Below, piece by piece: positions 37,720-51,872 of a stretch of 64,000 nt of DNA. The notes beneath the pieces are model-generated. The model was not told the origin of the DNA. It ran no database searches and saw only the letters and a program-made list of their open reading frames with translations. The DNA is taken from the NCBI GenBank assembly GCA_016870515.1, contig VGBL01000002.1, positions 133,506 to 197,505 of the forward strand, written 5' to 3'. Each line of letters opens with the position of its first letter. The stretch's first letter is position 1. Source of the DNA: Actinomycetota bacterium (lineage in GTDB: Bacteria; Actinomycetota; Actinomycetes; S36-B12). Position numbers and translations under genes: made by a program.

Positions 37720-38631
37720 TTAGCTGTGCACCGTCAGGAAGCGCTGATTGACGACGCCGTCGTAGTAGAAGAGCGCCCGGCCCATTTCGCCTTCGGTCCA
37801 GGTGATGGGGGGCTCGTCGGGGTCACTCCAGTAACCGCCGGTAAAGACCTCGTTGCGATTGCCCGCCGGGTCGAAGAAGTAGATGCAGTGCCCGCGCGTA
37901 GCGCCGTGACGCGTGGGGTTGGTCTCGATACGCACGCCGTGGAAGGCGAGCACATCCGAAGCCGTGCGAATGTCGTTCCAGTCGTCAACCCAGAAGGCGA
38001 AGTGGTGCAGCCCGCCGTCTGCACCGGTCACCAGCGCGATGTCATGTGAGGAGTGCGACACCTCCAGCCAGGTGGCGATCTGGAAGCCGTCATCACCCAC
38101 CACCTGCTCGGTGAGGTGGAAGTCAAGGACGTCCTGCAGGAACGCCGTCATCCCGTTGACGTCCTCGACCGTGAGGAAGACGTGATCGATGCGCGGCGGG
38201 GCGATGCCGACCAGGCCCAACGGCCGGGGAGGCGGGTTGGTGAGCGGCAGGAGGTTGCCCACCTGCTCCATGCCGTGGATGAGCTCCATCTGGTGGCCCG
38301 AGGGGGTCTGGAAGCGGATGACCGAGCCCCCGCCCACGCCGACCTCGGCTCCCTCCAGGCGCTTGACGGGCACGCCCGCCGCCTCGAGACGTGCCGCATA
38401 GAAGTCGAGGTCGTCGAGGCTCTCCACCTTCCAGCCCATGTGCGCCAGGCCGTAGGCGGGCGCATAGGTAAGGACCACCGAATGATGCTGGTGCTCGTCC
38501 CAGCACTTCAGGTAGACGCGCTCGGGCTCCCGAGCGGTCTCCACGAGGCCGAGTACTTCGGTGTAGTAGGCCGTGGCGAGCTCAAGGTCGGGAACCTTGA
38601 TCTCCACGTGCGACAGGCGCAGGATGGCCAT
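37720..38631 (-). CDS. Catechol 2,3-dioxygenase (XylE-type extradiol dioxygenase), copy A
   Basis: 303 aa, two-module VOC fold. Metal ligands in IDHVFL, GLHHFAFW and GNRNEVF. C-terminus NQRFLTVHS is collinear with XylE. Confidence 0.92.
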   Translation of the reverse strand: MAILRLSHVEIKVPDLELATAYYTEVLGLVETAREPERVYLKCWDEHQHHSVVLTYAPAYGLAHMGWKVESLDDLDFYAARLEAAGVPVKRLEGAEVGVGGGSVIRFQTPSGHQMELIHGMEQVGNLLPLTNPPPRPLGLVGIAPPRIDHVFLTVEDVNGMTAFLQDVLDFHLTEQVVGDDGFQIATWLEVSHSSHDIALVTGADGGLHHFAFWVDDWNDIRTASDVLAFHGVRIETNPTRHGATRGHCIYFFDPAGNRNEVFTGGYWSDPDEPPITWTEGEMGRALFYYDGVVNQRFLTVHS

Positions 38632-39539
38632 CAGGTGTGCACCTTCATGAATCGATCGTTGAGTTCACCCTCGTAGTAGAAGACGGCGCGGCCGATGTTG
38701 TCCTCGGTCCACGTGATGGTTGGGAAGTCCGGGTCGGGGCGGTAGCCCCCGGTGAACACCTCATTGCGAGTGCCGAGGGGATCAAAGAAGTAGATGGTGT
38801 TGCCTCGCGTGATGCCGTGGCGCGTGGGACCCACGTCGATCTGGATGCCGTTGTAGGCCAGGATGTCAGCGCTCTTGCGCACGTGATCCCAGTCGTCCAG
38901 CCAGAACGCGAAGTGATGGAGCCCGCCGTTGGGGCCGGAGACGATGGCCAGGTCGTGCGGCGAATGCGAGCGCTCCATCCACGTGGCGGCCTGGTGGCCC
39001 TCGCCATCCAGGAGCTGCTCGGTGACCCGGAAGCCCAAGACGTCGGTGAAGAACTTCGTGGACTCCCCCACCTCCTCGGCGGTCACCAGCAGGTGGTCCA
39101 TGCGTGGCGGGGCGATGCCGCGCGTGCCCTCGAAGAAGGGCGCGGGGTTCAGATTGCCGGTCGCACGACCGATCCTGTCGACGTCGTGCACGAGTTCCAT
39201 CACCTGACCCGAGGGCGTCTCGAATCTGATCGACTCGCCCTGGCCGATCGACGCACCCTTGCTGATGCGCTCGACCGGCAGGCCGTACTTGCCGACGGCG
39301 TTCTCGAGGTCGGACAGGTCGTCCTCGCGCAGCACCTTGAACGACATCAGGTCGAAGCCGACGCGCGGCGCGTAGGAGATGCGCAGCGAGTGATGGTCGA
39401 CCTCGTCCCAGCACTTGAGGTACACGGAGTTCTCGTCGCGCTCGACCTCCAGCAAGCCCATGACCTCGGTGTAGTAGGCCGCGGCCAGGTCGAGATCGGT
39501 GACCGTGATGTCGACGTGCGCCAGGCGCAGGATTCCCAT
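38631..39539 (-). CDS. Catechol 2,3-dioxygenase (XylE-type extradiol dioxygenase), copy B
   Basis: ATG 39539, in frame within ORF 38631..40025. 302 aa. MDHLLV, GLHHFAFW, GTRNEVF, ending DRFMKVHT. By eye, just over half of positions are identical to copy A. Its stop overlaps the copy A start (TGATG). Confidence 0.92.
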   Translation of the reverse strand: MGILRLAHVDITVTDLDLAAAYYTEVMGLLEVERDENSVYLKCWDEVDHHSLRISYAPRVGFDLMSFKVLREDDLSDLENAVGKYGLPVERISKGASIGQGESIRFETPSGQVMELVHDVDRIGRATGNLNPAPFFEGTRGIAPPRMDHLLVTAEEVGESTKFFTDVLGFRVTEQLLDGEGHQAATWMERSHSPHDLAIVSGPNGGLHHFAFWLDDWDHVRKSADILAYNGIQIDVGPTRHGITRGNTIYFFDPLGTRNEVFTGGYRPDPDFPTITWTEDNIGRAVFYYEGELNDRFMKVHT

Positions 39540-39596
39540 GTCGTCGCTCCCCAATCCCTCGGGCGTCGCTCGTGGCCCGAACCTAGGGCCTACCTG

Positions 39597-39631
39597 TCCC
39601 GCATCGAAGGACAGCGTTCCCGCATGCGGGA
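39597..39631. promoter_or_regulatory. Candidate operator: 14-bp perfect palindrome TCCCGCATGCGGGA plus upstream half-site
   Basis: Palindrome at 39618-39631. The TCCCGCA half-site repeats at 39597-39603 (21-bp spacing). Both lie in the 84-bp divergent region between the dioxygenase operon and the hypothetical/IclR operon. Confidence 0.35.
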
Positions 39632-40322
39632 CGTATCTGCTACGGTCCCGCTCGTGGAGGGGACGACACCCGAAGGCATGCGCCAGGCGATGGCCGACTA
39701 CGTCCGCGCCCTGCACCAGGCCTACCTCGATGCCGTCGCGACCCTTCCCCCGGCCGAACGCGCGCGCCTGCCACTTGTCGCTGCCGGCGACGTGACCGTG
39801 GCCGCCGCGGGCGTGCGCAGCCTGCATGTGATCGGCACCCTCGAAGCATTGCCCGCGCCTCAAGGACCCGAAGTCGAAATCCGCGACTGCGTCGACGATC
39901 TCGCATGGACACTGCGCTTCTTCGATCCCGTTGTCGCGCCCGCTTTGGGGATCATCGACGAATCCGCCGGCCCCAACTACGACGAGGTACGCCGTGCTCT
40001 CGGCATCAGAACGGTCGCGTATCACCTGGCCGTCCCGCCGGGGGGCAGCCTCACGTCACACCACGCTCTGCATGCTGGCACCGGCCTGGCGCACAGCCAT
40101 GCTGCCGCAGCACGTGACTTCGATGCACTTCGCGCGCATGCTCCTGGCCGCGAAGGGCTAGTCGACGAGATGCAGGGGGCCAGCATTGCCGGCCTCGCGC
40201 GTTCGCAGGTTCTCCTGGCCCACGCCATCGCGCCCGGACTCGATGGCCTGAGCTTGGAGCCACCCGCCGATCCCGCCGACGTCCGCCGCATCCTGCTCTC
40301 CTATCTGAGGTCTCCCTCGTGA
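39624..40322 (+). CDS. Hypothetical protein (~232 aa) co-transcribed with the IclR regulator
   Basis: 3' portion of ORF 38637..40322; the 5' ~1 kb of that ORF is antisense to the dioxygenase gene. In-frame starts at ATG 39624, GTG 39654 and ATG 39678. Stop overlaps the IclR start (GTGA). No motif recognised. Confidence 0.55.
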   Translation: MRDVSATVPLVEGTTPEGMRQAMADYVRALHQAYLDAVATLPPAERARLPLVAAGDVTVAAAGVRSLHVIGTLEALPAPQGPEVEIRDCVDDLAWTLRFFDPVVAPALGIIDESAGPNYDEVRRALGIRTVAYHLAVPPGGSLTSHHALHAGTGLAHSHAAAARDFDALRAHAPGREGLVDEMQGASIAGLARSQVLLAHAIAPGLDGLSLEPPADPADVRRILLSYLRSPS

Positions 40323-41143
40323 CCCCGACTCCCCCCAAGCGGCAGCACTCCACCCTGTCCAGCGTGCGCAACGCCGCTCGCCTGCTCAAGGAGTTCGGCC
40401 ACGGCGACCGCGACATGGGCGTCACCGAGATCTCCCGGCGGTTAGGCATCGGCAAAAGCACCGCGCACCGACTGCTGAGCACGCTGGCCGACGAGCGTCT
40501 CCTGGAGCAGGATCCGGACACGGGCGCCTACCGACTCGGATTGGCCATGTACGAACTCGGCGCGTCCGTGGCGCTCCACAACGACCTGCACGAGGCGTGC
40601 TCGCCTGTGATCGACCAATTGCGCAATGCAACGCGCGAGACCGTGCAGGTAGCCGTGCTCGACGGTCGCGAGGTTGTCTACGTCGAGCGGCGCGAGAGCC
40701 CACAAACCCTTCGCCTGTTCGGACGCGTCGGTCACCGCAACGACGCCCACTGCACGAGCACCGGCAAACTGCTGCTCGCCTACCTCGATGATGAGCAACT
40801 CCAGGCCACGGTGCGCGGCTGGAAGCTCAAGCGCAAGACCCCCTACACGATCACGGATCCGCGGGCCCTGCTCAGTGCACTTGTGGAGGTCCGACGGCAG
40901 GGCTGGGCCGAAAACGTCAACGAGTCTGAACTGGGGGCGGCATCGATCGCGGCACCCATCCGCAACGAGCGCGGTGAGGTGATCGCGGCGCTGTCCATCG
41001 TGGGCCCCGTCCAGCGCCTGGGCAGCGATTCCCTGCGGCGCTTCGCCCGACCCGCCGTGGAGGCCGCCCTCGCGGTGAGCCGACGCCTGGGCTATAGAGA
41101 TCCACGCACCCCCCGTCGCACAGCAGGAGAGGGCAACCCATGA
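40319..41143 (+). CDS. IclR family transcriptional regulator
   Basis: wHTH MGVTEISRRLGIGKSTAHRLLSTL, plus an IclR effector domain (HCTSTGKLLLAY, ELGAASIAAPI). Confidence 0.92.
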   Translation: MTPTPPKRQHSTLSSVRNAARLLKEFGHGDRDMGVTEISRRLGIGKSTAHRLLSTLADERLLEQDPDTGAYRLGLAMYELGASVALHNDLHEACSPVIDQLRNATRETVQVAVLDGREVVYVERRESPQTLRLFGRVGHRNDAHCTSTGKLLLAYLDDEQLQATVRGWKLKRKTPYTITDPRALLSALVEVRRQGWAENVNESELGAASIAAPIRNERGEVIAALSIVGPVQRLGSDSLRRFARPAVEAALAVSRRLGYRDPRTPRRTAGEGNP

Positions 41144-41931
41144 CCAGACCCACCCCCGAGCAGATACGCGAGATGTCGGCAGCGCTGCTGGGTGCCCGTG
41201 TCAATCGTCAGCCGATCCCGCCGCTCACCGAGCGGTTCCCTGAGATGACCGCCGAGGATGCCTACGCCGTGCAGCAGGGCCTCATTGCGGGCCTGCTCGC
41301 CGACGGCGACTCGATCATCGGCTACAAGCTCGGCCTTACCAGTCGCGCCATGCAGGAGATGCTCGGTGTCGACCAGCCCGACTACGCACCGGTCTTGGGA
41401 TCGACCGCCTACGCCGACGGTGGCGAGGTTCCCGCTGACCGCTACATCGCACCGCGCATGGAAGCCGAGATCTGCGTCGTGCTCGACGATCCGCTGTCAG
41501 GCCCGCACTGCACCGCAGCTCAGGCATGGGAAGCCACTCGGGGTCTCGTGGCTGCACTGGAGATCGTCGACAGCCGCATCGCCGACTGGAAGATCACGCT
41601 AGCCGACACCATCTCCGACCTCGCCTCCAACGGCGCGGTCGCATTCGGCAGCCGCGTGGTGCCGCTCGGCGACTTCGATCCGGCTCTCATCGGCATGGTG
41701 TTCACGCGCAACGGCGATCTCGTGGCCACCGGCGCTGGGGCTGCCGCGCTCGGCGGCCCGATCGACGCCGTCGCCTGGCTTGCCAACACCCTGTATCCGC
41801 TCGGTGTCACGCTTCCGGCGGGGGCCATCATCATGACCGGGGCACTCCATGCGGCCGTGCCCTTTGTGCGCGGCGATGTCTTCCGCGCCGACTTCGACCG
41901 CCTCGGCCCCATCACCCTTCGCATAGCCTGA
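41140..41931 (+). CDS. 2-keto-4-pentenoate hydratase
   Basis: 263 aa. AYAVQ, GYKLGLTS, PRMEAEICVVL (MhpD/XylJ/DmpE family). First gene of a dmpEFGH-like order. Confidence 0.85.
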   Translation: MTRPTPEQIREMSAALLGARVNRQPIPPLTERFPEMTAEDAYAVQQGLIAGLLADGDSIIGYKLGLTSRAMQEMLGVDQPDYAPVLGSTAYADGGEVPADRYIAPRMEAEICVVLDDPLSGPHCTAAQAWEATRGLVAALEIVDSRIADWKITLADTISDLASNGAVAFGSRVVPLGDFDPALIGMVFTRNGDLVATGAGAAALGGPIDAVAWLANTLYPLGVTLPAGAIIMTGALHAAVPFVRGDVFRADFDRLGPITLRIA

Positions 41932-41946
41932 GCCGAAAGGACACCC

Positions 41947-42858
41947 ATGACACTGCGCTGCGCCATCGTCGGCTCCGGCAACATCGGCACCGACCTGATG
42001 ATCAAGATGCTGCGTAGCGACAAGCTGCAGCTCACCGCACTGGTCGGCATCGACCCCGATTCCGATGGCCTCGCCCGCGCAAAGGCGCTGGGCGTCGACG
42101 CCCCCCACCAGGGACCTGATTGGGTCATCGACCACGCCAACGACTTCGACATGGTCTTCGATGCCACGAGCGCCTATGTCCACGTGCGCTACCACAAGAA
42201 ATACGAGGAGGCAGGCATGACGGCGGTCGACCTCACGCCCGCTGCCCGCGGACCCAAGGTGATCGCCGCTGTGAACCTGACCGAGCACCTCGACGCACCC
42301 AACATCAACATGGTGACCTGCGGCGGCCAGGCCACGACACCCATGGCCTACGCCATTCGTCGAGCGGTCGATCGACTTCCCTACTGCGAGATGGTGTCCA
42401 CCGTTGCCTCGAAGTCGGCAGGGCCCGGCACACGGCAGAACATCGACGAGTTCACCAAGACCACATCGACCGCCCTTCGCGAGATCGGCGGCGCCGACAC
42501 AAGCAAGGCCATCATCATCCTCAACCCTGCAGACCCGCCCATCATCATGCGCAACACCGTCTTCGGGGCGCTCCCCGAGGGCACCGACCACGACGCCGTG
42601 CTCGAGTCGATCTACGACATGGAGAAGTCGGTCTCGTCCTACGTCCCCGGATACCGGCTGAAGAACCAGTTGGTCGTCGAGGAGGGTCCCTACAACACAC
42701 CGGGTGGCCTTGTCCCCCACCGCGTCGTTGTGCTGCTGGAGGTCGAGGGCGCCGGCGACTACCTGCCCACCTTCGCCGGCAATCTCGACATCATGACCGC
42801 CGCCGCTATGCGCGTCGGCGAGGCCATTGCCGACCACCGAGAGGGTGACGCTGCATGA
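41947..42858 (+). CDS. Acetaldehyde dehydrogenase (acetylating)
   Basis: [15 protein letters not shown], catalytic Cys in [10 protein letters not shown], 303 aa (DmpF/MhpF family). Confidence 0.95.
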
Positions 42859-43889
42859 GCGCCAAGGCCGCCGACTACCGCCTGATCGACTCGACCCTGC
42901 GCGATGGCTCGCATGCCATATCGCACCAGTTCTATGCGGAGGATGTCATCCGCATAGTCGAGGGCCTCGACAATGCCGGGGTGAAGGTCATCGAGATCGC
43001 CCACGGAGACGGCCTCGGCGGGTCCAGCTTCAACTACGGCTTCTCCGCGGTTCCCGAGAAGGAGCTCATCGCCAAGGCCTGCGAGACGGCGCAGCAGGCT
43101 CAGATCGCCTGCCTGATGCTGCCCGGCATCGGGCTCGCCGACGACCTGCGCGAGGTCCGCGAACTCGGCATCACCGTAGCCCGCATCGCCGTGCACTGCA
43201 CCGAGGCCGACATCACCGAGCAGCACATCAAGGTGGCTAAGGAACTCGGCATGGAGGCCATAGGATTCCTCATGCTGGCCCATATGAACTCCCCCGAGGG
43301 CCTGGTCGAGCAGGCCCTTCTCCTGCAGTCCTACGGCGCCGACACCGTCTACATCGCCGACTCGGCAGGCGCCATGACCGTCGAGGACGTGCGCCGTCGC
43401 GTCAACGCCCTGGTCGGGGCGCTCGAGGTGCCCCTCGGCGTACACGCCCACAACAACCTGTCCATGGCGGTTGCCAACTCGATCGCTGCCTACGAGGAGG
43501 GCGCCAAGAACCTCGACGGCACCTCGGCAGGCCTCGGGGCGGGAGCAGGCAACTGCCCCACGGAGATCCTCGCCGCGGTGTCGACGAAGTGCGGCATCGA
43601 AACCGGCGTCGACCCACTCGCCCTCATGGACGTGGCCGAAGACGTCGTGCGACCAATCATGCCTCGACAGCAGGTCATCGACCGAGCAGGGCTTCTCCTC
43701 GGCTACGCCGGGGTCTACGGCTCATTCCTGCTGCATGCCGAGCGCGCCGCGGAGCGATACGGTGTACCGCAGTCCGAGATCTTGCTCGAATTGGGTCGAC
43801 GCAAGGTGGTCGGCGGCCAGGAGGACATGATCATCGACGTCGCTCTCGAACTCGCCCGCAAACACGCCGATCAGGAGATCACCGGATGA
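42855..43889 (+). CDS. dmpG: 4-hydroxy-2-oxovalerate aldolase
   Basis: [26 protein letters not shown]-terminal communication domain. Start overlaps the upstream stop. Confidence 0.95.
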
Positions 43890-44668
43890 GCACCCTCGAT
43901 CATGACGTGGCCGTCGAGCGCCTAACCACCGCCGTCCGCGAACTCACCGCGACGACCCCCCTGACCGAGCACCACGGGCACTTCGACATCCCGACGGCCT
44001 ACGACCTGCAGGCGCGCGTTGTTGCCCACCGTCTCGAGCAGGGCCATCGTGTCATCGGGGCCAAGCTCGGGCTCACCAGCGAGGCCAAGCAGAAGCAGAT
44101 GAATGTCAACGAGCCGCTCTACGGGTGGCTCACCAGCGACATGCGCGTCGAGCCGGGATCCCCTCTGGTCGTCGGCCAGTTCATCCAGCCGCGCGTCGAG
44201 GCTGAGATCGCCTTCCTGATGGGTGACGACCTCGAGGGCGACGACATCGGGGCCGCCGACGTGCTCGCGGCGACGGCGGCCGTCATGCCCGCGATCGATG
44301 TGCTCGACTCCCGCTATGCCGGCTACTCCTTCACGCTCCCCGACGTCATCGCCGACAACTCGTCGTCAGCGGGATTCGTCACCGGGTCTGTGCTCGTCGA
44401 TCCCACGGGCATCGACCTTCGCCTGTGCGGCGTCGTCCTCGAGGTCAATGGCCAGGTTGTCGCCACCGCGGCCGGTGCCGCCGTGCTCGGCCATCCGGCC
44501 GCCTCCGTCGCATGGCTGGTACGCGCTCTCGCGCGCCGAGGCGAGGGCCTCGAGGCGGGCATGACCGTGCTCTCCGGCGCGTGCACCGCGGCCTTCGCCG
44601 TGACCGCGGGCGACACTGTCGTTGCTCGCATCGACCGTCTCGGAGCCGTCGAGGTCCCGTGCAGGTGA
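43886..44668 (+). CDS. 2-oxo-3-hexenedioate (4-oxalocrotonate) decarboxylase / hydratase paralogue
   Basis: ATG 43886 overlaps the aldolase stop (ATGA). AYDLQ, GAKLGLTS, PRVEAEIAFLM. Decarboxylase is assigned from its position (the dmpH slot) only. Confidence 0.75.
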   Translation: MSTLDHDVAVERLTTAVRELTATTPLTEHHGHFDIPTAYDLQARVVAHRLEQGHRVIGAKLGLTSEAKQKQMNVNEPLYGWLTSDMRVEPGSPLVVGQFIQPRVEAEIAFLMGDDLEGDDIGAADVLAATAAVMPAIDVLDSRYAGYSFTLPDVIADNSSSAGFVTGSVLVDPTGIDLRLCGVVLEVNGQVVATAAGAAVLGHPAASVAWLVRALARRGEGLEAGMTVLSGACTAAFAVTAGDTVVARIDRLGAVEVPCR

Positions 44669-48996: not shown

Positions 48997-49458
48997 ACCG
49001 CCATCCCCGGTGAGGCAGAGCTGTTGCCTCGCTTCGTCTTTTCTCCAGGGCCCGCAACTTGTGGCCGCGGTCCACGGTCAGTCGCTGCCCCGCACTCATC
49101 GTCATAGGCACGTTCGCCATCGCCGGATCGTCGCTGTGGTGCTCGGGCGAGGCCCTCAAGATGAGCCACCCGTGGTTCTCCTGCCCCAGCAAGGATGACA
49201 CCGTGCCCCACGTCGAAGAAGACCCATCTGGTGGGGGCGCTCAGGTGCAGATGACGGGCAGCGCAGCCGGCCTGACCTACAACCCCTAGGCCTCCGACCT
49301 CGGCAAGTTCCTCAAACTTCGATCCACCGCCCGCAACAACGCCGGGTTCTAGACGGTCGTCAGCACAGCCAGCCCGAAGGTCGTCAAGGGCCAGCGCTGA
49401 TTTCGCTCACCTACCAGGACTCGCAATCCCCTGGGCGTGAGAGAAGGCGACGATCGCC

Positions 49459-49770
49459 TCAGGAGTCCTGAGGGCTATCGAACTTGCGGAAGCCGAAGTA
49501 GTAGACGTAGACCACCGTAAGCACTGGGCCGACGGTGATCATCAGGAAGGGCACCACCCCGCCGGTCCCGGCGCGGATGTAGGCGAGCGCCGTAACCACG
49601 ACGGCAATGCCGAGAACGATCGCGATCGCCGCGAAGGCGTAGCGCTGAGGCGCACGCGCCGACCATGGCACAGGAGCAATCGGGTCATCCACCCCTGAAG
49701 GCTCCCACGCCCCCTCGGGCAGCGCCAGCGGGGCACCGACAAGCTGGCAACCGCTTGACCTTCCACGCAC
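49459..49770 (-). CDS. Hypothetical small membrane protein (2 TM)
   Basis: YAFAAIAIVLGIAVVVTALAYI and VVPFLMITVGPVLTVVYVYYFGF helices. Directly downstream of the NHLP-like ORF. Start uncertain. Confidence 0.45.
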   Translation of the reverse strand: MRGRSSGCQLVGAPLALPEGAWEPSGVDDPIAPVPWSARAPQRYAFAAIAIVLGIAVVVTALAYIRAGTGGVVPFLMITVGPVLTVVYVYYFGFRKFDSPQDS

Positions 49771-49794: not shown

Positions 49795-50112
49795 CTAGGT
49801 AGGACAGCGGCCGGAGAATCTGCTTCCCCACCCGCCACCGCCAGCAACCACTCCGAGATCGGCGTCACTAAGGTCCTCAGCCGCGGAAATGGTGAGGTGG
49901 ATCTGGGTCAGCGACTCCTCCTGAAGGACGGCCTGCACGGTGTCGGGAATGTCGAAGCCAACAACCTCGGCCACCACCCCGCAAGGATCAGCCAGCAGCA
50001 CGTCGCGGAAAGCGGGGCCTCCTCTGGTCAGCCTGGCCAGGGTGGACCGAGAACGCAAGCAGTTCAGGCTCCGACCCAAAAGTCTGGCCGAGCAGGATTG
50101 CCTGGGCTGCAC
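49795..50112 (-). CDS. NHLP (nitrile-hydratase-like leader peptide) family RiPP precursor candidate
   Basis: FRDVLLADPCGVVAEVVGFDIPDTVQAVLQEESLTQIHLTIS...DLSDADLGVVAGG aligns position by position with the NHLP consensus F[KR]..L...P..V....G..LP..V...V.EE....L.LVLP...LSDE.LE.VAGG. 13-aa tail GGWGSRFSGRCPT. GTG 50112; alternative TTG 50058 preceded by GGAG. Confidence 0.7.
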   Translation of the reverse strand: MQPRQSCSARLLGRSLNCLRSRSTLARLTRGGPAFRDVLLADPCGVVAEVVGFDIPDTVQAVLQEESLTQIHLTISAAEDLSDADLGVVAGGGGWGSRFSGRCPT

Positions 50113-50137
50113 GATCCGACCGGCGTGGGTGAGTCCT

Positions 50138-51715
50138 TCAGTCTAGGTAGTCGCGCAGGACCTGTGAGCGGCTCGGGTGCCGGAGTTTCGACATCGTCTT
50201 GGACTCGATCTGACGGATCCGCTCACGAGTGACGCCGTAGACCTTGCCGATCTCGTCCAGGGTTTTGGGCTGGCCGTCGGTCAGCCCGAAGCGCATGCGC
50301 ACCACGCCAGCCTCGCGGTCGGAGAGGGTGTCAAGCACCGACTCGAGCTGCTCCTGAAGCAGCGTGAATGACACAGCGTCGCTCGGCACTATCGCCTCGG
50401 AATCCTCGATGAGGTCGCCGAACTCCGAGTCGCCGTCTTCACCCAGTGGCGTGTGCAGCGAGATCGGCTCGCGACCATACTTCTGGACCTCGACCACCTT
50501 CTCGGGGGTCATGTCGAGTTCCTTGGCGAGCTCCTCCGGAGTCGGCTCGCGGCCGAGGTCCTGCAGCATCTGCCGCTGGACACGAGCGAGCTTGTTGATG
50601 ACCTCGACCATGTGGACGGGGATGCGGATCGTGCGTGCCTGGTCGGCCATCGCTCGCGTGATGGCCTGGCGGATCCACCACGTCGCGTAGGTCGAGAACT
50701 TGTAGCCCTTGGTGTAGTCGAACTTCTCGACCGCGCGGATGAGGCCGAGGTTGCCTTCCTGGATGAGGTCGAGGAAGAGCATGCCTCGACCGGTGTAGCG
50801 CTTGGCTAGCGAGACGACCAGGCGAAGGTTGGCCTCGAGTAGATGGTTCTTGGCGCGCCGGCCGTCTTCGGCGATCCACTCCAGGTCACGACGGAGCTTG
50901 TCGGCAATCTTCTTGCCCGCGTTGAGCTTCTCCTCGGCGAATAGTCCCGCCTCGATGCGCTTGGCGAGCTCGACTTCCTGCTCGGCGTTGAGCAGGGGCA
51001 CCTTGCCGATCTGCTTGAGGTAGTCCTTAACCGGATCAGCCGTCGCTCCGGCCTGGGTGACCTGCTGCACAGGCTCATCGGTGTCGTCGACATCCGACAG
51101 CACGAACGCCTCTGAATCACCCGAGGCGGGCGTCTCCTCGCCTTCGATGGTCGCGAGGTCCTCGGCGAGCTCCGCCTCCAACTCGGCTTCAAGGCCGGCA
51201 GCCGCTCCAAGATCGGGCTCCTCCTCGACCACGAGCTCCTCGATCTCGACCTCTTCGACTTCGACTTCCCCGCCGTCGACGACAACCTTGGTGGTTTTGC
51301 CGCCCTTCGCAGTCTTGGCAGGGGCGTCAGGCTTGGCTGAACCCCTTGCAGGTGCGGCGGCAGCCTTAGCGGCAGGTGCGGCCTTCTTGGCAGGCGCGGG
51401 CTTCGCCGCTGCTCTCTTGGGCGCAGGCTTCTTGACCGGCGCAGCCCTCTTTGGCGCGACCTTCTTGCTAGGGGCCTTCTTCGCAACCGGTTTCTTCGCC
51501 GCCGGCTTCCTCGCGGGCGCCTTCTTCGCGGGCGCCTTCTTCGCCACCGGCTTCCTCGCGGGCGCCTTCTTCGCGGGCGCCTTCCTCGCCGGCGCCTTCC
51601 TGGCCACCGGCTTCCTCGCGGGCGCCTTCTTCGCGACCGGCTTCCTCGCGGGCGCCTTCCTCGCCACCGGCTTCTTGGCGGCGGTCTTCTTCGGGGCAGC
51701 CTTCTTGGTCGCCAT
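50138..51715 (-). CDS. sigA: Principal RNA polymerase sigma-70 factor
   Basis: [51 protein letters not shown] 51715 ([10 protein letters not shown]) after GGAGG; the ORF is open to 51760. Lys/Ala/Pro-rich N-terminus. Confidence 0.97.
51296..51706 (-). repeat. Coding tandem/low-complexity repeat ([10 protein letters not shown] units) in the sigA N-terminal region
   Basis: Reiterated ggcgccttcttcgcg / accggcttcctcgcg units on the plus strand (clearest at 51476-51673) encode (A/P)(A/P)RK..AKK repeats. They create spurious ORFs in other frames. Confidence 0.8.
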
Positions 51716-51872
51716 TCTTGCCCTGCCTCCGATTGGTCGCATGAAGAGGGCCCGAGTCAAGTCCGTGTGGACCTGGCCGGGCTCTCATGCCGCGCTGAGC
51801 GGCGTGCCTAGGGCAACGCCCCGGGCCCCATTATTGTTCCATGTGCTCGGCCTCCGGCACGTCAGGGGCAGG

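What the first reader, a model, noticed from the sequence alone, without database searches (positions are those of the whole stretch)
49795..50112. Orphan NHLP-type RiPP precursor ORF 25 nt downstream of sigA, with atypical codon usage
SEEN: the ORF's leader matches the nitrile-hydratase-like leader peptide consensus along its whole length (FRDVLLADPCGVVAEVVGFDIPDTVQAVLQEESLTQIHLTIS....DLSDADLGVVAGG). It ends in the double-Gly cleavage motif, followed by a 13-aa tail GGWGSRFSGRCPT containing Ser, Cys and Thr.
- By my count 29 of 105 codons end in A or T, far more than in neighbouring genes.
- There is no obvious terminator between the sigA stop (50138) and the ORF.
- A 2-TM mini-protein follows at 49770-49459.
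- No cyclodehydratase, LanM/LanB, radical-SAM enzyme or C39-peptidase ABC exporter is in the window.

ESTABLISHED: NHLP leaders precede cores of thiazole/oxazole-modified microcins, lanthipeptides (prochlorosin type) and other RiPPs, and precursors can be encoded far from their maturases.

INFERENCE: this is either a remote precursor of a RiPP system encoded elsewhere or a recently acquired or decaying one. Read-through from the principal sigma factor gene would be an unusual expression context.
Basis: partly seen in the sequence, partly recalled or inferred. Interest (0 to 1): 0.7.

Follow-up and report, generated by a model that had tools for sequence, protein, structure and literature searches.

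The report
Truncated relic of an NHLP peptide gene
The small reading frame after the main sigma-factor gene is a real relative of the precursors of ribosomal thiazole/oxazole-type peptides, but a 380-base deletion removed its start codon and the first helix of its leader, so it is most likely a decaying leftover, not a working orphan precursor.

Summary
The ORF at 49795-50112(-) is homologous to a large family of NHLP-type RiPP precursors from high-GC freshwater Actinomycetota ("Ca. Nanopelagicales" MAGs), but only from the residues PAFRD onward. It scores 31.7 bits on TIGR03793 (cutoff 50.9), covering profile positions 18-77 only. Intact relatives score 57-60 bits over the whole profile.

Two syntenic relatives, L006 and L007, carry two intact precursor genes at this spot, followed by the same 77-aa two-TM gene. 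Relative to both, the window lacks exactly 380 bp:
- the ATG and all of gene 1;
- the spacer between the two genes;
- the first 20 codons of gene 2, which encode the leader's alpha1 helix.

The old Shine-Dalgarno now lies 16 nt from the next in-frame GTG.

The retained part has H->Q and P->S changes at columns invariant in 119 relatives. Its lower GC3 comes mainly from lineage-specific third-position C->T changes. The neighbouring gene is also a pseudogene. No maturase or exporter is in the 64 kb, although family gene clusters elsewhere are classical NHLP-TOMM systems.

Verdict: a truncated, probably non-functional member of a known family. Interest is low.

The parts
50138..51760 (-). Principal sigma factor gene (sigA/hrdB type). 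The likely ATG is at 51715.
   Evidence: The identical gene in L029 carries Sigma70_r1_2, r2, r3 and r4. ORF list.
50017..50137 (-). Spacer homologous to the 5' untranslated leader upstream of NHLP gene 1 in relatives.
   Evidence: blastn: window 50157-50016 matches L006 84-223 (72%) and window 50157-50021 matches L007 978-1115 (83%). Found only in sigA-linked loci. GC1 0.52 and GC2 0.70 over the first 33 codons.
50018..50025 (-). Orphaned Shine-Dalgarno (AGAGGAGG) of the lost gene 1. The next in-frame GTG, at 50001, is 16 nt away.
   Evidence: Read from the sequence. It aligns with the GAGGAG upstream of the ATG of L006 gene 1.
50012..50021 (-). Deletion junction, good to a few bases. 380 bp are missing relative to L006 (224-603) and L007 (1116-1495).
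   Evidence: The two blastn segments abut at window 50017/50016 against both relatives. The same junction is present in contigs of at least 98.8% identity from other samples.
49795..50016 (-). Retained part of the NHLP precursor, equal to codons 21-93 of the L006 gene 2 orthologue, plus the stop codon.
   Evidence: tblastn with P0002 residues 21-93: 86% identity, E 1.4e-29. TIGR03793 profile positions 18-77.
49855..49872 (-). L(X)4L motif (LSDADL) of the leader, retained.
   Evidence: Sequence. The motif is as defined in PMC12455567.
49837..49842 (-). Gly-Gly leader cleavage motif (…VAGG).
   Evidence: Alignment A1.
49798..49836 (-). Core region GGWGSRFSGRCPT, 13 aa.
   Evidence: It fits the family's cores: Trp within the first four residues in 104 of 107, and at least one Cys in 107 of 107.
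49921..49923 (-). CAG (Gln) where 119 of 119 other family members have His.
   Evidence: CAC->CAG is specific to the window lineage.
49885..49887 (-). TCC (Ser) where 119 of 119 other family members have Pro.
49459..49692 (-). Conserved 77-aa two-TM protein of unknown function. It is the real downstream gene.
   Evidence: Orthologues of 79-90% identity in L006, L007, L012, L013 and L016. No Pfam or NCBIfam family.
49077..49397 (+). Pseudogene remnant of a secreted protein with Ca-binding repeats.
   Evidence: tblastn with the 365-aa L006 protein: residues 2-28 and 275-365 only, with two in-frame stops.

Best explanation
**What it is.** The ORF is the 3' three-quarters of a precursor gene of the NHLP-type TOMM family, left behind by a deletion. 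TOMM stands for thiazole/oxazole-modified microcins, a class of azoline/azole peptides.

**How it arose.**
- In the ancestor of this population, two intact precursor genes sat between sigA and a conserved 77-aa two-TM gene, as they still do in relatives L006 and L007. They were remote from the maturation gene cluster.
- A single 380-bp deletion joined the ribosome-binding site of gene 1 to codon 21 of gene 2.
- This removed the start codon, all of gene 1, the spacer, and the alpha1 helix of the gene 2 leader.
- Since then the remnant has drifted. It has changes at two otherwise invariant leader residues and GC->AT changes at third codon positions.

**What it does now (inferred).** It is probably transcribed only incidentally, as part of the sigA-to-two-TM-gene spacer. 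If any peptide is made, the family's fused RRE-YcaO cyclodehydratase should not engage it, because that class of enzyme needs the alpha1 helix as well as the L(X)4L motif.

**Shown versus inferred.**
- Shown: the homology, the deletion, the lost start and helix, and the absence of maturases in the window.
- Inferred: the loss of function and the incidental transcription.
For: **Family membership of the retained part**
- 204 homologs were found. The leader is nearly invariant and the cores are hypervariable.
- Intact members pass TIGR03793 at 57-60 bits over positions 1-77. The window copy scores 31.7-32.5 bits over positions 18-77.

**The deletion**
- The two homology blocks abut at window 50017/50016. 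Exactly 380 bp are missing relative to both L006 and L007.
- The same state is present in independent assemblies from several runs, so it is not an assembly collapse.
- The lost segment is the alpha1 helix. P0002 residues 12-80 align to the NMR structure 8TB1 (MprE7), and residues 8-80 to 9CJX. By my own reading of that alignment, MprE7 helix residues 7-17 correspond to about residues 8-18 of P0002. The window's homology begins only at residue 21.
- In Wakeel et al. 2025 (PMC12455567), the alpha1 helix and L(X)4L are both required by the YcaO MprC, and the N-terminal truncations nearly abolish product.

**Signs of decay**
- H->Q and P->S fall at columns that are 100% invariant in 119 relatives. 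In all, 4 of 39 conserved columns are changed, against a family mean of 0.77.
- GC3 of the retained part is 0.716, against 0.838 and 0.806 for the same part in L006 and L007. Five of the 7 window-specific synonymous changes are C->T at third positions.
- The adjacent gene is also a pseudogene.

**Context**
- The Shine-Dalgarno is 16 nt from the next in-frame GTG.
- No gene-cluster protein has a homolog in the window.
Against: - The frame is still open. Gene callers call an 87-aa product from TTG 50058 on at least 10 contigs.
- The L(X)4L motif, the GG site and the conserved Trp and Cys of the core are all kept.
- On the window-specific branch there are 6 non-synonymous and 7 synonymous changes, which I estimate as omega about 0.3. 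Pairwise dN/dS is 0.23-0.25. That is not the value near 1 expected of a long-dead gene, although the numbers are small and part of the branch predates the deletion.
- Some NHLP-dependent enzymes tolerate leaders without the structured N-terminal part, for example the brominase SrpI (PMC12537861).
- The rest of this genome could not be examined.
Confidence: 0.7

Rival explanations
1. The ORF is a working remote precursor. It is translated from the TTG at 50058, or from another start, on sigA read-through transcripts. It is then modified and exported in trans by a YcaO/rSAM/C39-ABC gene cluster elsewhere in the genome.
For: - The frame is open and is called as an 87-aa gene on at least 10 contigs.
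- L(X)4L, the GG site and the core Trp and Cys are kept.
- dN/dS is below 1.
- Intact orphan precursors far from the gene cluster exist in this family. They are seen in L006 and L007, and in L021, whose MAG has the cluster on another contig, L001/L033.
- A related MAG, which holds both L013 and L035, has the YcaO gene.
- No terminator was found after sigA.
- SrpI tolerates N-terminally truncated NHLP leaders.
Against: - The native start codon and the alpha1 helix are gone.
- YcaO enzymes acting on NHLP leaders need that helix.
- The substitute N-terminus is former untranslated DNA with non-coding composition.
- Two invariant leader residues are changed.
- The match to TIGR03793 is below its threshold.
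- No maturase lies within 64 kb.
Confidence: 0.2
2. The ORF was recently acquired by horizontal transfer, and its atypical codon usage marks it as foreign.
For: - GC3 is 0.73, against 0.77-0.84 in the neighbouring genes.
- The sigA-to-two-TM-gene spacer varies in content among relatives.
Against: - The orthologous genes sit at the same place in L006 and L007, with normal GC3 of 0.78-0.85.
- The deficit arises largely from window-specific third-position C->T changes.
- The flanks are about 85-88% identical to those relatives throughout.
Confidence: 0.05
3. The ORF is a chance open frame in GC-rich DNA, or an assembly artefact from collapse of two tandem paralogues.
For: - Long spurious ORFs are common in this 67% GC window.
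- The two paralogues in relatives are 74-75% alike, so they could in principle mis-assemble.
Against: - The match to P0002 is 86% identical at the protein level, E 1.4e-29.
- The junction is out of register. It joins a ribosome-binding site to codon 21, not one paralogue to the other at the same position.
- The same junction recurs in independent assemblies from many runs.
Confidence: 0.03

Closest known systems
NHLP (nitrile hydratase-like leader peptide) precursors of TOMM systems (Haft, Basu & Mitchell 2010, PMC2887384; NCBIfam TIGR03793 with exporters TIGR03794/03796/03797)
   Same: - The leader is homologous from profile position 18 onward.
- It has the L(X)4L motif, the Gly-Gly cleavage site and a short Cys-containing core.
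- Intact relatives pass TIGR03793.
- Those relatives lie beside a fused RRE-SagD/YcaO cyclodehydratase, a SagB dehydrogenase and the NHLP exporter trio.
   Different: - The window copy lacks profile positions 1-17 (the alpha1 helix) and its start codon.
- It scores below the cutoff.
- It has no maturase or exporter within 64 kb.
MprE7/MprC, an NHLP precursor and its azoline-forming YcaO (PDB 8TB1; PMC12455567)
   Same: - P0002 aligns to 8TB1 at E 6.7e-06.
- The leader has the same two-part recognition logic of alpha1 helix plus L(X)4L.
- The family's YcaO has an N-terminal leader-binding domain, TIGR03882.
   Different: - The window copy resembles an N-terminally truncated leader of the kind that lost nearly all product in that study, although the smallest truncation tested there was delta 1-37.
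- The cores are unrelated.
- Nothing was tested biochemically here.
Prochlorosin-type organisation: many precursors with conserved leaders and hypervariable cores, some encoded far from the single maturase
   Same: - The family has up to about a dozen tandem precursors per gene cluster.
- The leader is nearly invariant and there are 88 distinct cores among 107 parsed sequences.
- Orphan copies occur at remote loci.
   Different: - Prochlorosins are lanthipeptides made by ProcM from Nif11-type leaders in cyanobacteria.
- This family uses an NHLP leader and YcaO chemistry in Actinomycetota.
- The window copy is a remnant.

Membership tests
NHLP leader peptide family RiPP precursor (TIGR03793) | Score at or above the curated cutoff of the family model (50.9 bits) | tested here: not met
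   The 105-aa ORF scores 31.7 bits, the 86-aa version I tested (49795-50055) 32.5 bits, and P0001 35.8 bits. Intact relatives score 56.9-59.9 bits.
NHLP leader peptide family RiPP precursor (TIGR03793) | Complete leader domain including the N-terminal alpha1 helix | tested here: not met
   Only profile positions 18-77 are matched. The 380-bp deletion removes codons 1-20 of the orthologue. The mapping to 8TB1 shows that this is the alpha1 helix.
NHLP leader peptide family RiPP precursor (TIGR03793) | Sequence homology to accepted members | tested here: met
   204 homologs were found, and NCBI names many of them NHLP leader peptide family RiPP precursors. The match to P0002 residues 21-93 is 86% identical.
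NHLP leader peptide family RiPP precursor (TIGR03793) | L(X)4L motif and Gly-Gly cleavage site at the end of the leader, followed by a short core with Cys/Ser/Thr | tested here: met
   The sequence is LSDADLGVVAGG | GGWGSRFSGRCPT.
NHLP leader peptide family RiPP precursor (TIGR03793) | Own start codon with a ribosome-binding site at working distance | tested here: not met
   The native ATG is deleted. The Shine-Dalgarno lies 16 nt from the next in-frame GTG. The TTG at 50058 lies in former untranslated leader, with only a GGAG 10 nt upstream.
NHLP-type TOMM system (cyclodehydratase plus NHLP exporter) | Cyclodehydratase (TIGR03882/TIGR03604) and exporter (TIGR03794/03796/03797) in the neighbourhood | tested here: not met
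   None is present in the 64-kb window. They are present next to intact family members in L002-L004, L008 and L009.
NHLP-type TOMM system (cyclodehydratase plus NHLP exporter) | Cyclodehydratase and exporter somewhere in the same genome | not testable with these tools
   The source genome was not found: an exact search for the junction in genome contigs gave no match. A related MAG, CAINGG01, has both the sigA/two-TM locus (L013) and a YcaO fragment (L035).
NHLP-type TOMM system (cyclodehydratase plus NHLP exporter) | Peptide is made, heterocyclised, cleaved and exported | not testable with these tools
   This needs expression and mass spectrometry.

The most novel reading that the evidence does not exclude
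The alpha1-less ORF would still be translated from TTG 50058 on transcripts reading through from the principal sigma-factor gene. It would then be handled in trans by those enzymes of a remote NHLP gene cluster that need only the L(X)4L-GG part of the leader: the C39 exporter, and perhaps the rSAM or the sulfotransferase-like enzyme. The product would be an unheterocyclised or differently modified 13-mer. That would make it a natural minimal-leader NHLP substrate whose expression is tied to housekeeping transcription.
Probability: 0.08. Interest if true: 0.55.

Novelty: new member of a known kind. Interest (0 to 1): 0.22.

Why it matters
For the finding itself the value is mainly corrective:
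- An apparent orphan RiPP precursor read through from sigA turns out to be a deletion remnant.
- Genome-mining counts of orphan precursors should check that the leader is complete. Here gene callers still call the remnant as an 87-aa gene, though it falls below the TIGR03793 cutoff.

The relic happens to lack the alpha1 helix, which recent biochemistry found essential for YcaO engagement, so it is a small natural illustration of that rule.

The family around it is more interesting than the relic:
- These are NHLP-TOMM gene clusters in uncultured high-GC freshwater Actinomycetota.
- They hold up to about a dozen tandem precursors with a nearly invariant leader and hypervariable Cys-rich cores.
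- Intact orphan copies are scattered in the genome.
- I found no description of the family in the searchable literature.

Tried and rejected
- **Frameshift rescue.** I looked in the other two frames upstream for the missing N-terminus and found none.
- **Second copy in the window.** tblastn with both L006 precursors found only the one locus.
- **Source genome.** The ORF query in genome contigs found only a distant cluster copy, L001. An exact search with the 32-nt junction found nothing. The genome-wide maturase question therefore stays open.
- **Wrong coordinates.** My look-up used 50055 instead of 50058 and found nothing. The corrected look-up found 10 contigs.
- **dN/dS.** Pairwise values are 0.23-0.25, and the window branch has 6 non-synonymous against 7 synonymous changes. 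There are too few sites to separate drift from constraint.
- **Promoter and terminator scan, RNA folds.** Nothing was found, and the folds are no better than shuffles. This does not exclude the non-canonical terminators of actinobacteria.
- **Functional link to the two-TM gene.** It is conserved next to sigA with or without NHLP genes (L016, L012, L013). I therefore do not treat it as part of a RiPP system, although a paralogue lies near an orphan precursor in L021.
- **Horizontal transfer as the cause of the codon bias.** Rejected.
- **Lost tool.** The script machine was lost, so a survey of two-TM and NHLP co-occurrence across all loci was not completed.
- **Literature.** A search for 'Nanopelagicales' plus 'RiPP' returned only one, retracted, paper.

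Full report
**1. What is in the sequence**

On the minus strand, the sigA-type gene ends with a TGA at 50140-50138. A frame then stays open from a GTG at 50112 to a TAG at 49797-49795, giving 105 aa. Its C-terminal two-thirds read PAFRDVLLADPCGVVAEVVGFDIPDTVQAVLQEESLTQIHLTISAAEDLSDADLGVVAGG, followed by GGWGSRFSGRCPT.

The A/T-ending codon count is right: 29 of 106 codons including the stop, GC3 0.726. The contrast with the neighbours is modest, since they have GC3 of 0.77-0.84. The first 33 codons have GC1 0.52 and GC2 0.70, which is not a coding pattern for this 67% GC genome.

**2. The family test**

TIGR03793 (leader_NHLP) matches at E 1e-07 and 31.7 bits. That is below the curated cutoff of 50.9, and the match covers profile positions 18-77 of 77 only. 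Pfam gives nothing.

A search of the large protein collection found 204 homologs of about 90-100 aa. Many are named by NCBI 'NHLP leader peptide family RiPP precursor', from Actinomycetota or Candidatus Nanopelagicales MAGs.

Their alignment shows a nearly invariant leader followed by a short, variable core:
- Leader: MAVPTRSEVEAxIAERIAADPAFRDxLLADPRGV…HEESLTQIHLTIP…LSDADLELVAGG.
- The window ORF agrees only from PAFRD onward.
- Seven intact members score 56.9-59.9 bits over the whole profile. The window copy and its near-identical twin P0001 score 32-36 bits over positions 18-77.

**3. What happened at this locus**

Two metagenomic contigs are syntenic with the window at about 85-88% nucleotide identity: L006, which holds P0002, and L007, which holds P0004.

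Both carry this order of features:
- the last ~20 nt of sigA;
- a ~120-nt leader;
- NHLP gene 1;
- NHLP gene 2;
- the 77-aa two-TM gene;
- further on, the GyrB-like gene, preceded by DUF7455 in L006 only (a methyltransferase gene sits there in L007).

blastn splits the window into two blocks:
- 50157-50016 matches L006 84-223; 50157-50021 matches L007 978-1115. This is the sigA end plus the untranslated leader of gene 1.
- 50017-49441 matches L006 604-1183; 50017-49448 matches L007 1496-2063. This is gene 2 from codon 21, plus the two-TM gene.

Between the blocks the window lacks 380 bp relative to each relative. The missing DNA is the ATG and all of gene 1, the spacer, and the first 20 codons of gene 2.

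The old Shine-Dalgarno, AGAGGAGG at 50025-50018, now sits 16 nt from the next in-frame GTG at 50001.

The junction is out of register between the two paralogues. It recurs in contigs of at least 98.8% identity from many independent runs, where gene callers call an 87-aa product from TTG 50058. It is therefore a real, population-wide state and not an assembly collapse.

**4. What was lost**

P0002 aligns to two solved NHLP leaders, 9CJX at E 2.7e-07 and 8TB1 (MprE7) at E 6.7e-06. By my own reading of that alignment, the MprE7 alpha1 helix, residues 7-17, corresponds to about residues 8-18 of P0002. All of these residues lie in the deleted segment.

Wakeel et al. 2025 (PMC12455567) report three things:
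- The YcaO cyclodehydratase MprC needs both the alpha1 helix and the L(X)4L motif of the NHLP leader.
- The helix contacts the enzyme's RRE domain.
- The N-terminal truncations (delta 1-37 and longer) nearly abolish product.

The family's own cyclodehydratase is of the same build, with a TIGR03882 leader-binding domain fused to a SagD/YcaO domain.

By analogy, the window peptide would not be heterocyclised. This step is an inference. Some other NHLP-dependent enzymes tolerate such truncations, for example the brominase SrpI, while the lanthionine synthetase DprM does not (PMC12537861).

**5. Signs of decay**

- **Changes at conserved columns.** In the retained part the window deviates at 4 of the 39 columns that are at least 90% conserved. 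The mean over 119 relatives is 0.77 and the maximum is 4. The changes include His->Gln (49923-49921) and Pro->Ser (49887-49885), at columns invariant in all 119.
- **Lower GC3.** GC3 of the retained part is 0.716, against 0.838 and 0.806 for the same stretch in L006 and L007. Five of the seven window-specific synonymous changes are C->T at third positions. The odd codon usage therefore reflects mutation pressure in this lineage. It is not a sign of foreign origin.
- **dN/dS is inconclusive.** Pairwise values are 0.23-0.25, and the window branch has 6 non-synonymous and 7 synonymous changes. This counts somewhat against long-standing neutrality.
- **The neighbour is also a wreck.** 49077-49397(+) retains only residues 2-28 and 275-365 of a 365-aa secreted Ca-binding-repeat protein that is intact in L006. 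It has two in-frame stops.

**6. Context and expression**

The window contains no relative of any protein of the family's gene clusters. Thirty large ORFs are ordinary metabolic or housekeeping genes, and the 39-53 kb stretch is covered by precomputed Pfam marks.

Among related MAGs the sigA-to-two-TM-gene spacer varies:
- empty in L016, where the two-TM gene starts 13 nt after sigA;
- an MFS gene in L012;
- a 475-aa Ca-repeat protein gene in L013;
- NHLP genes in L006 and L007.

No terminator-like or promoter-like site was found, and neither spacer folds better than shuffles. The simplest reading is that any transcription across the relic is read-through from sigA toward the two-TM gene. This was not tested.

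**7. The system the relic came from**

Intact family members lie in gene clusters with the following components:
- a fused RRE-YcaO cyclodehydratase of 692-763 aa;
- a Sulfotransfer_4-like protein;
- an unknown protein of 319-341 aa;
- a PhyH-like protein;
- DUF2332;
- in some clusters a radical-SAM/SPASM enzyme or a SagB dehydrogenase;
- the NHLP exporter trio, TIGR03794, TIGR03796 with its C39 peptidase domain, and TIGR03797.

Up to about a dozen precursors stand in tandem. The cores are short, with a median of 14 aa. All contain Cys, 104 of 107 have Trp within the first four residues, and 88 of 107 are distinct.

Orphan intact precursors also occur away from the cluster:
- L021 has one among nuclease and LysR genes. 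Its MAG has the cluster on another contig, L001/L033.
- A MAG related to the window organism, CAINGG01, has both the sigA/two-TM locus (L013) and a YcaO fragment (L035).

Remote precursors are thus a real feature of the family. Whether the window's own genome still has the enzymes could not be determined.

**8. Verdict**

The finding is a genuine but truncated member of the NHLP-TOMM precursor family. It is most likely a pseudogene left by a 380-bp deletion. The full-length leader match, the strength of the codon anomaly and the significance of the position after sigA were overstated. Novelty is low: the family is known and annotated. The family-level organisation in uncultured freshwater Actinomycetota is the more interesting by-product.

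Noticed in passing
window 49077-49397 (+): Pseudogene remnant of a secreted protein with hemolysin-type Ca-binding repeats. Only residues 2-28 and 275-365 of the intact 365-aa L006 homologue remain, with two in-frame stops.
   Followed up: yes
window 49459-49692 (-); L012-L026: A conserved 77-aa two-TM protein with no Pfam or NCBIfam family. It follows sigA in this lineage. Paralogues in other contexts were found in further MAGs, one of them near an orphan NHLP precursor (L021 2277-2483 and 3378-3617).
   Followed up: partly
L006 84-103; L007 978-997 and 438-749: In both relatives only the last ~20 nt of sigA (…VRDYLD*) precede the NHLP 5' leader, and sigA itself is not upstream. L007 has a third NHLP gene on the opposite strand with a longer core. 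This suggests a rearrangement or insertion at the 3' end of sigA.
   Followed up: partly
L012 1493-2843; L013 328-1835; L016 5988-6001: The spacer between sigA and the two-TM gene varies among related MAGs. It is empty in L016, holds an MFS transporter gene in L012, and holds a 475-aa Ca-repeat protein gene in L013.
   Followed up: yes
L002, L003, L004, L008, L009, L032-L035: NHLP-TOMM gene clusters of uncultured high-GC freshwater Actinomycetota, with up to about a dozen tandem precursors (invariant leader, hypervariable Cys-rich cores). Their accessory genes have unclear roles: Sulfotransfer_4-like, PhyH-like, DUF2332 and an unknown protein of 319-341 aa. I found no description in the searchable literature.
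   Followed up: partly
L034 (CAMAVT010000014.1): The contig is labelled as a 'Bifidobacterium breve' MAG, yet it carries a YcaO 74% identical to the freshwater actinobacterial one. The taxonomic label looks doubtful.
   Followed up: no
window 37720-44000: A run of genes for aromatic-ring meta-cleavage: two extradiol dioxygenase-like genes, two FAA_hydrolase-family genes, HMGL-like aldolase, acetaldehyde dehydrogenase, an IclR regulator and a Rieske protein. It is unrelated to the finding.
   Followed up: no
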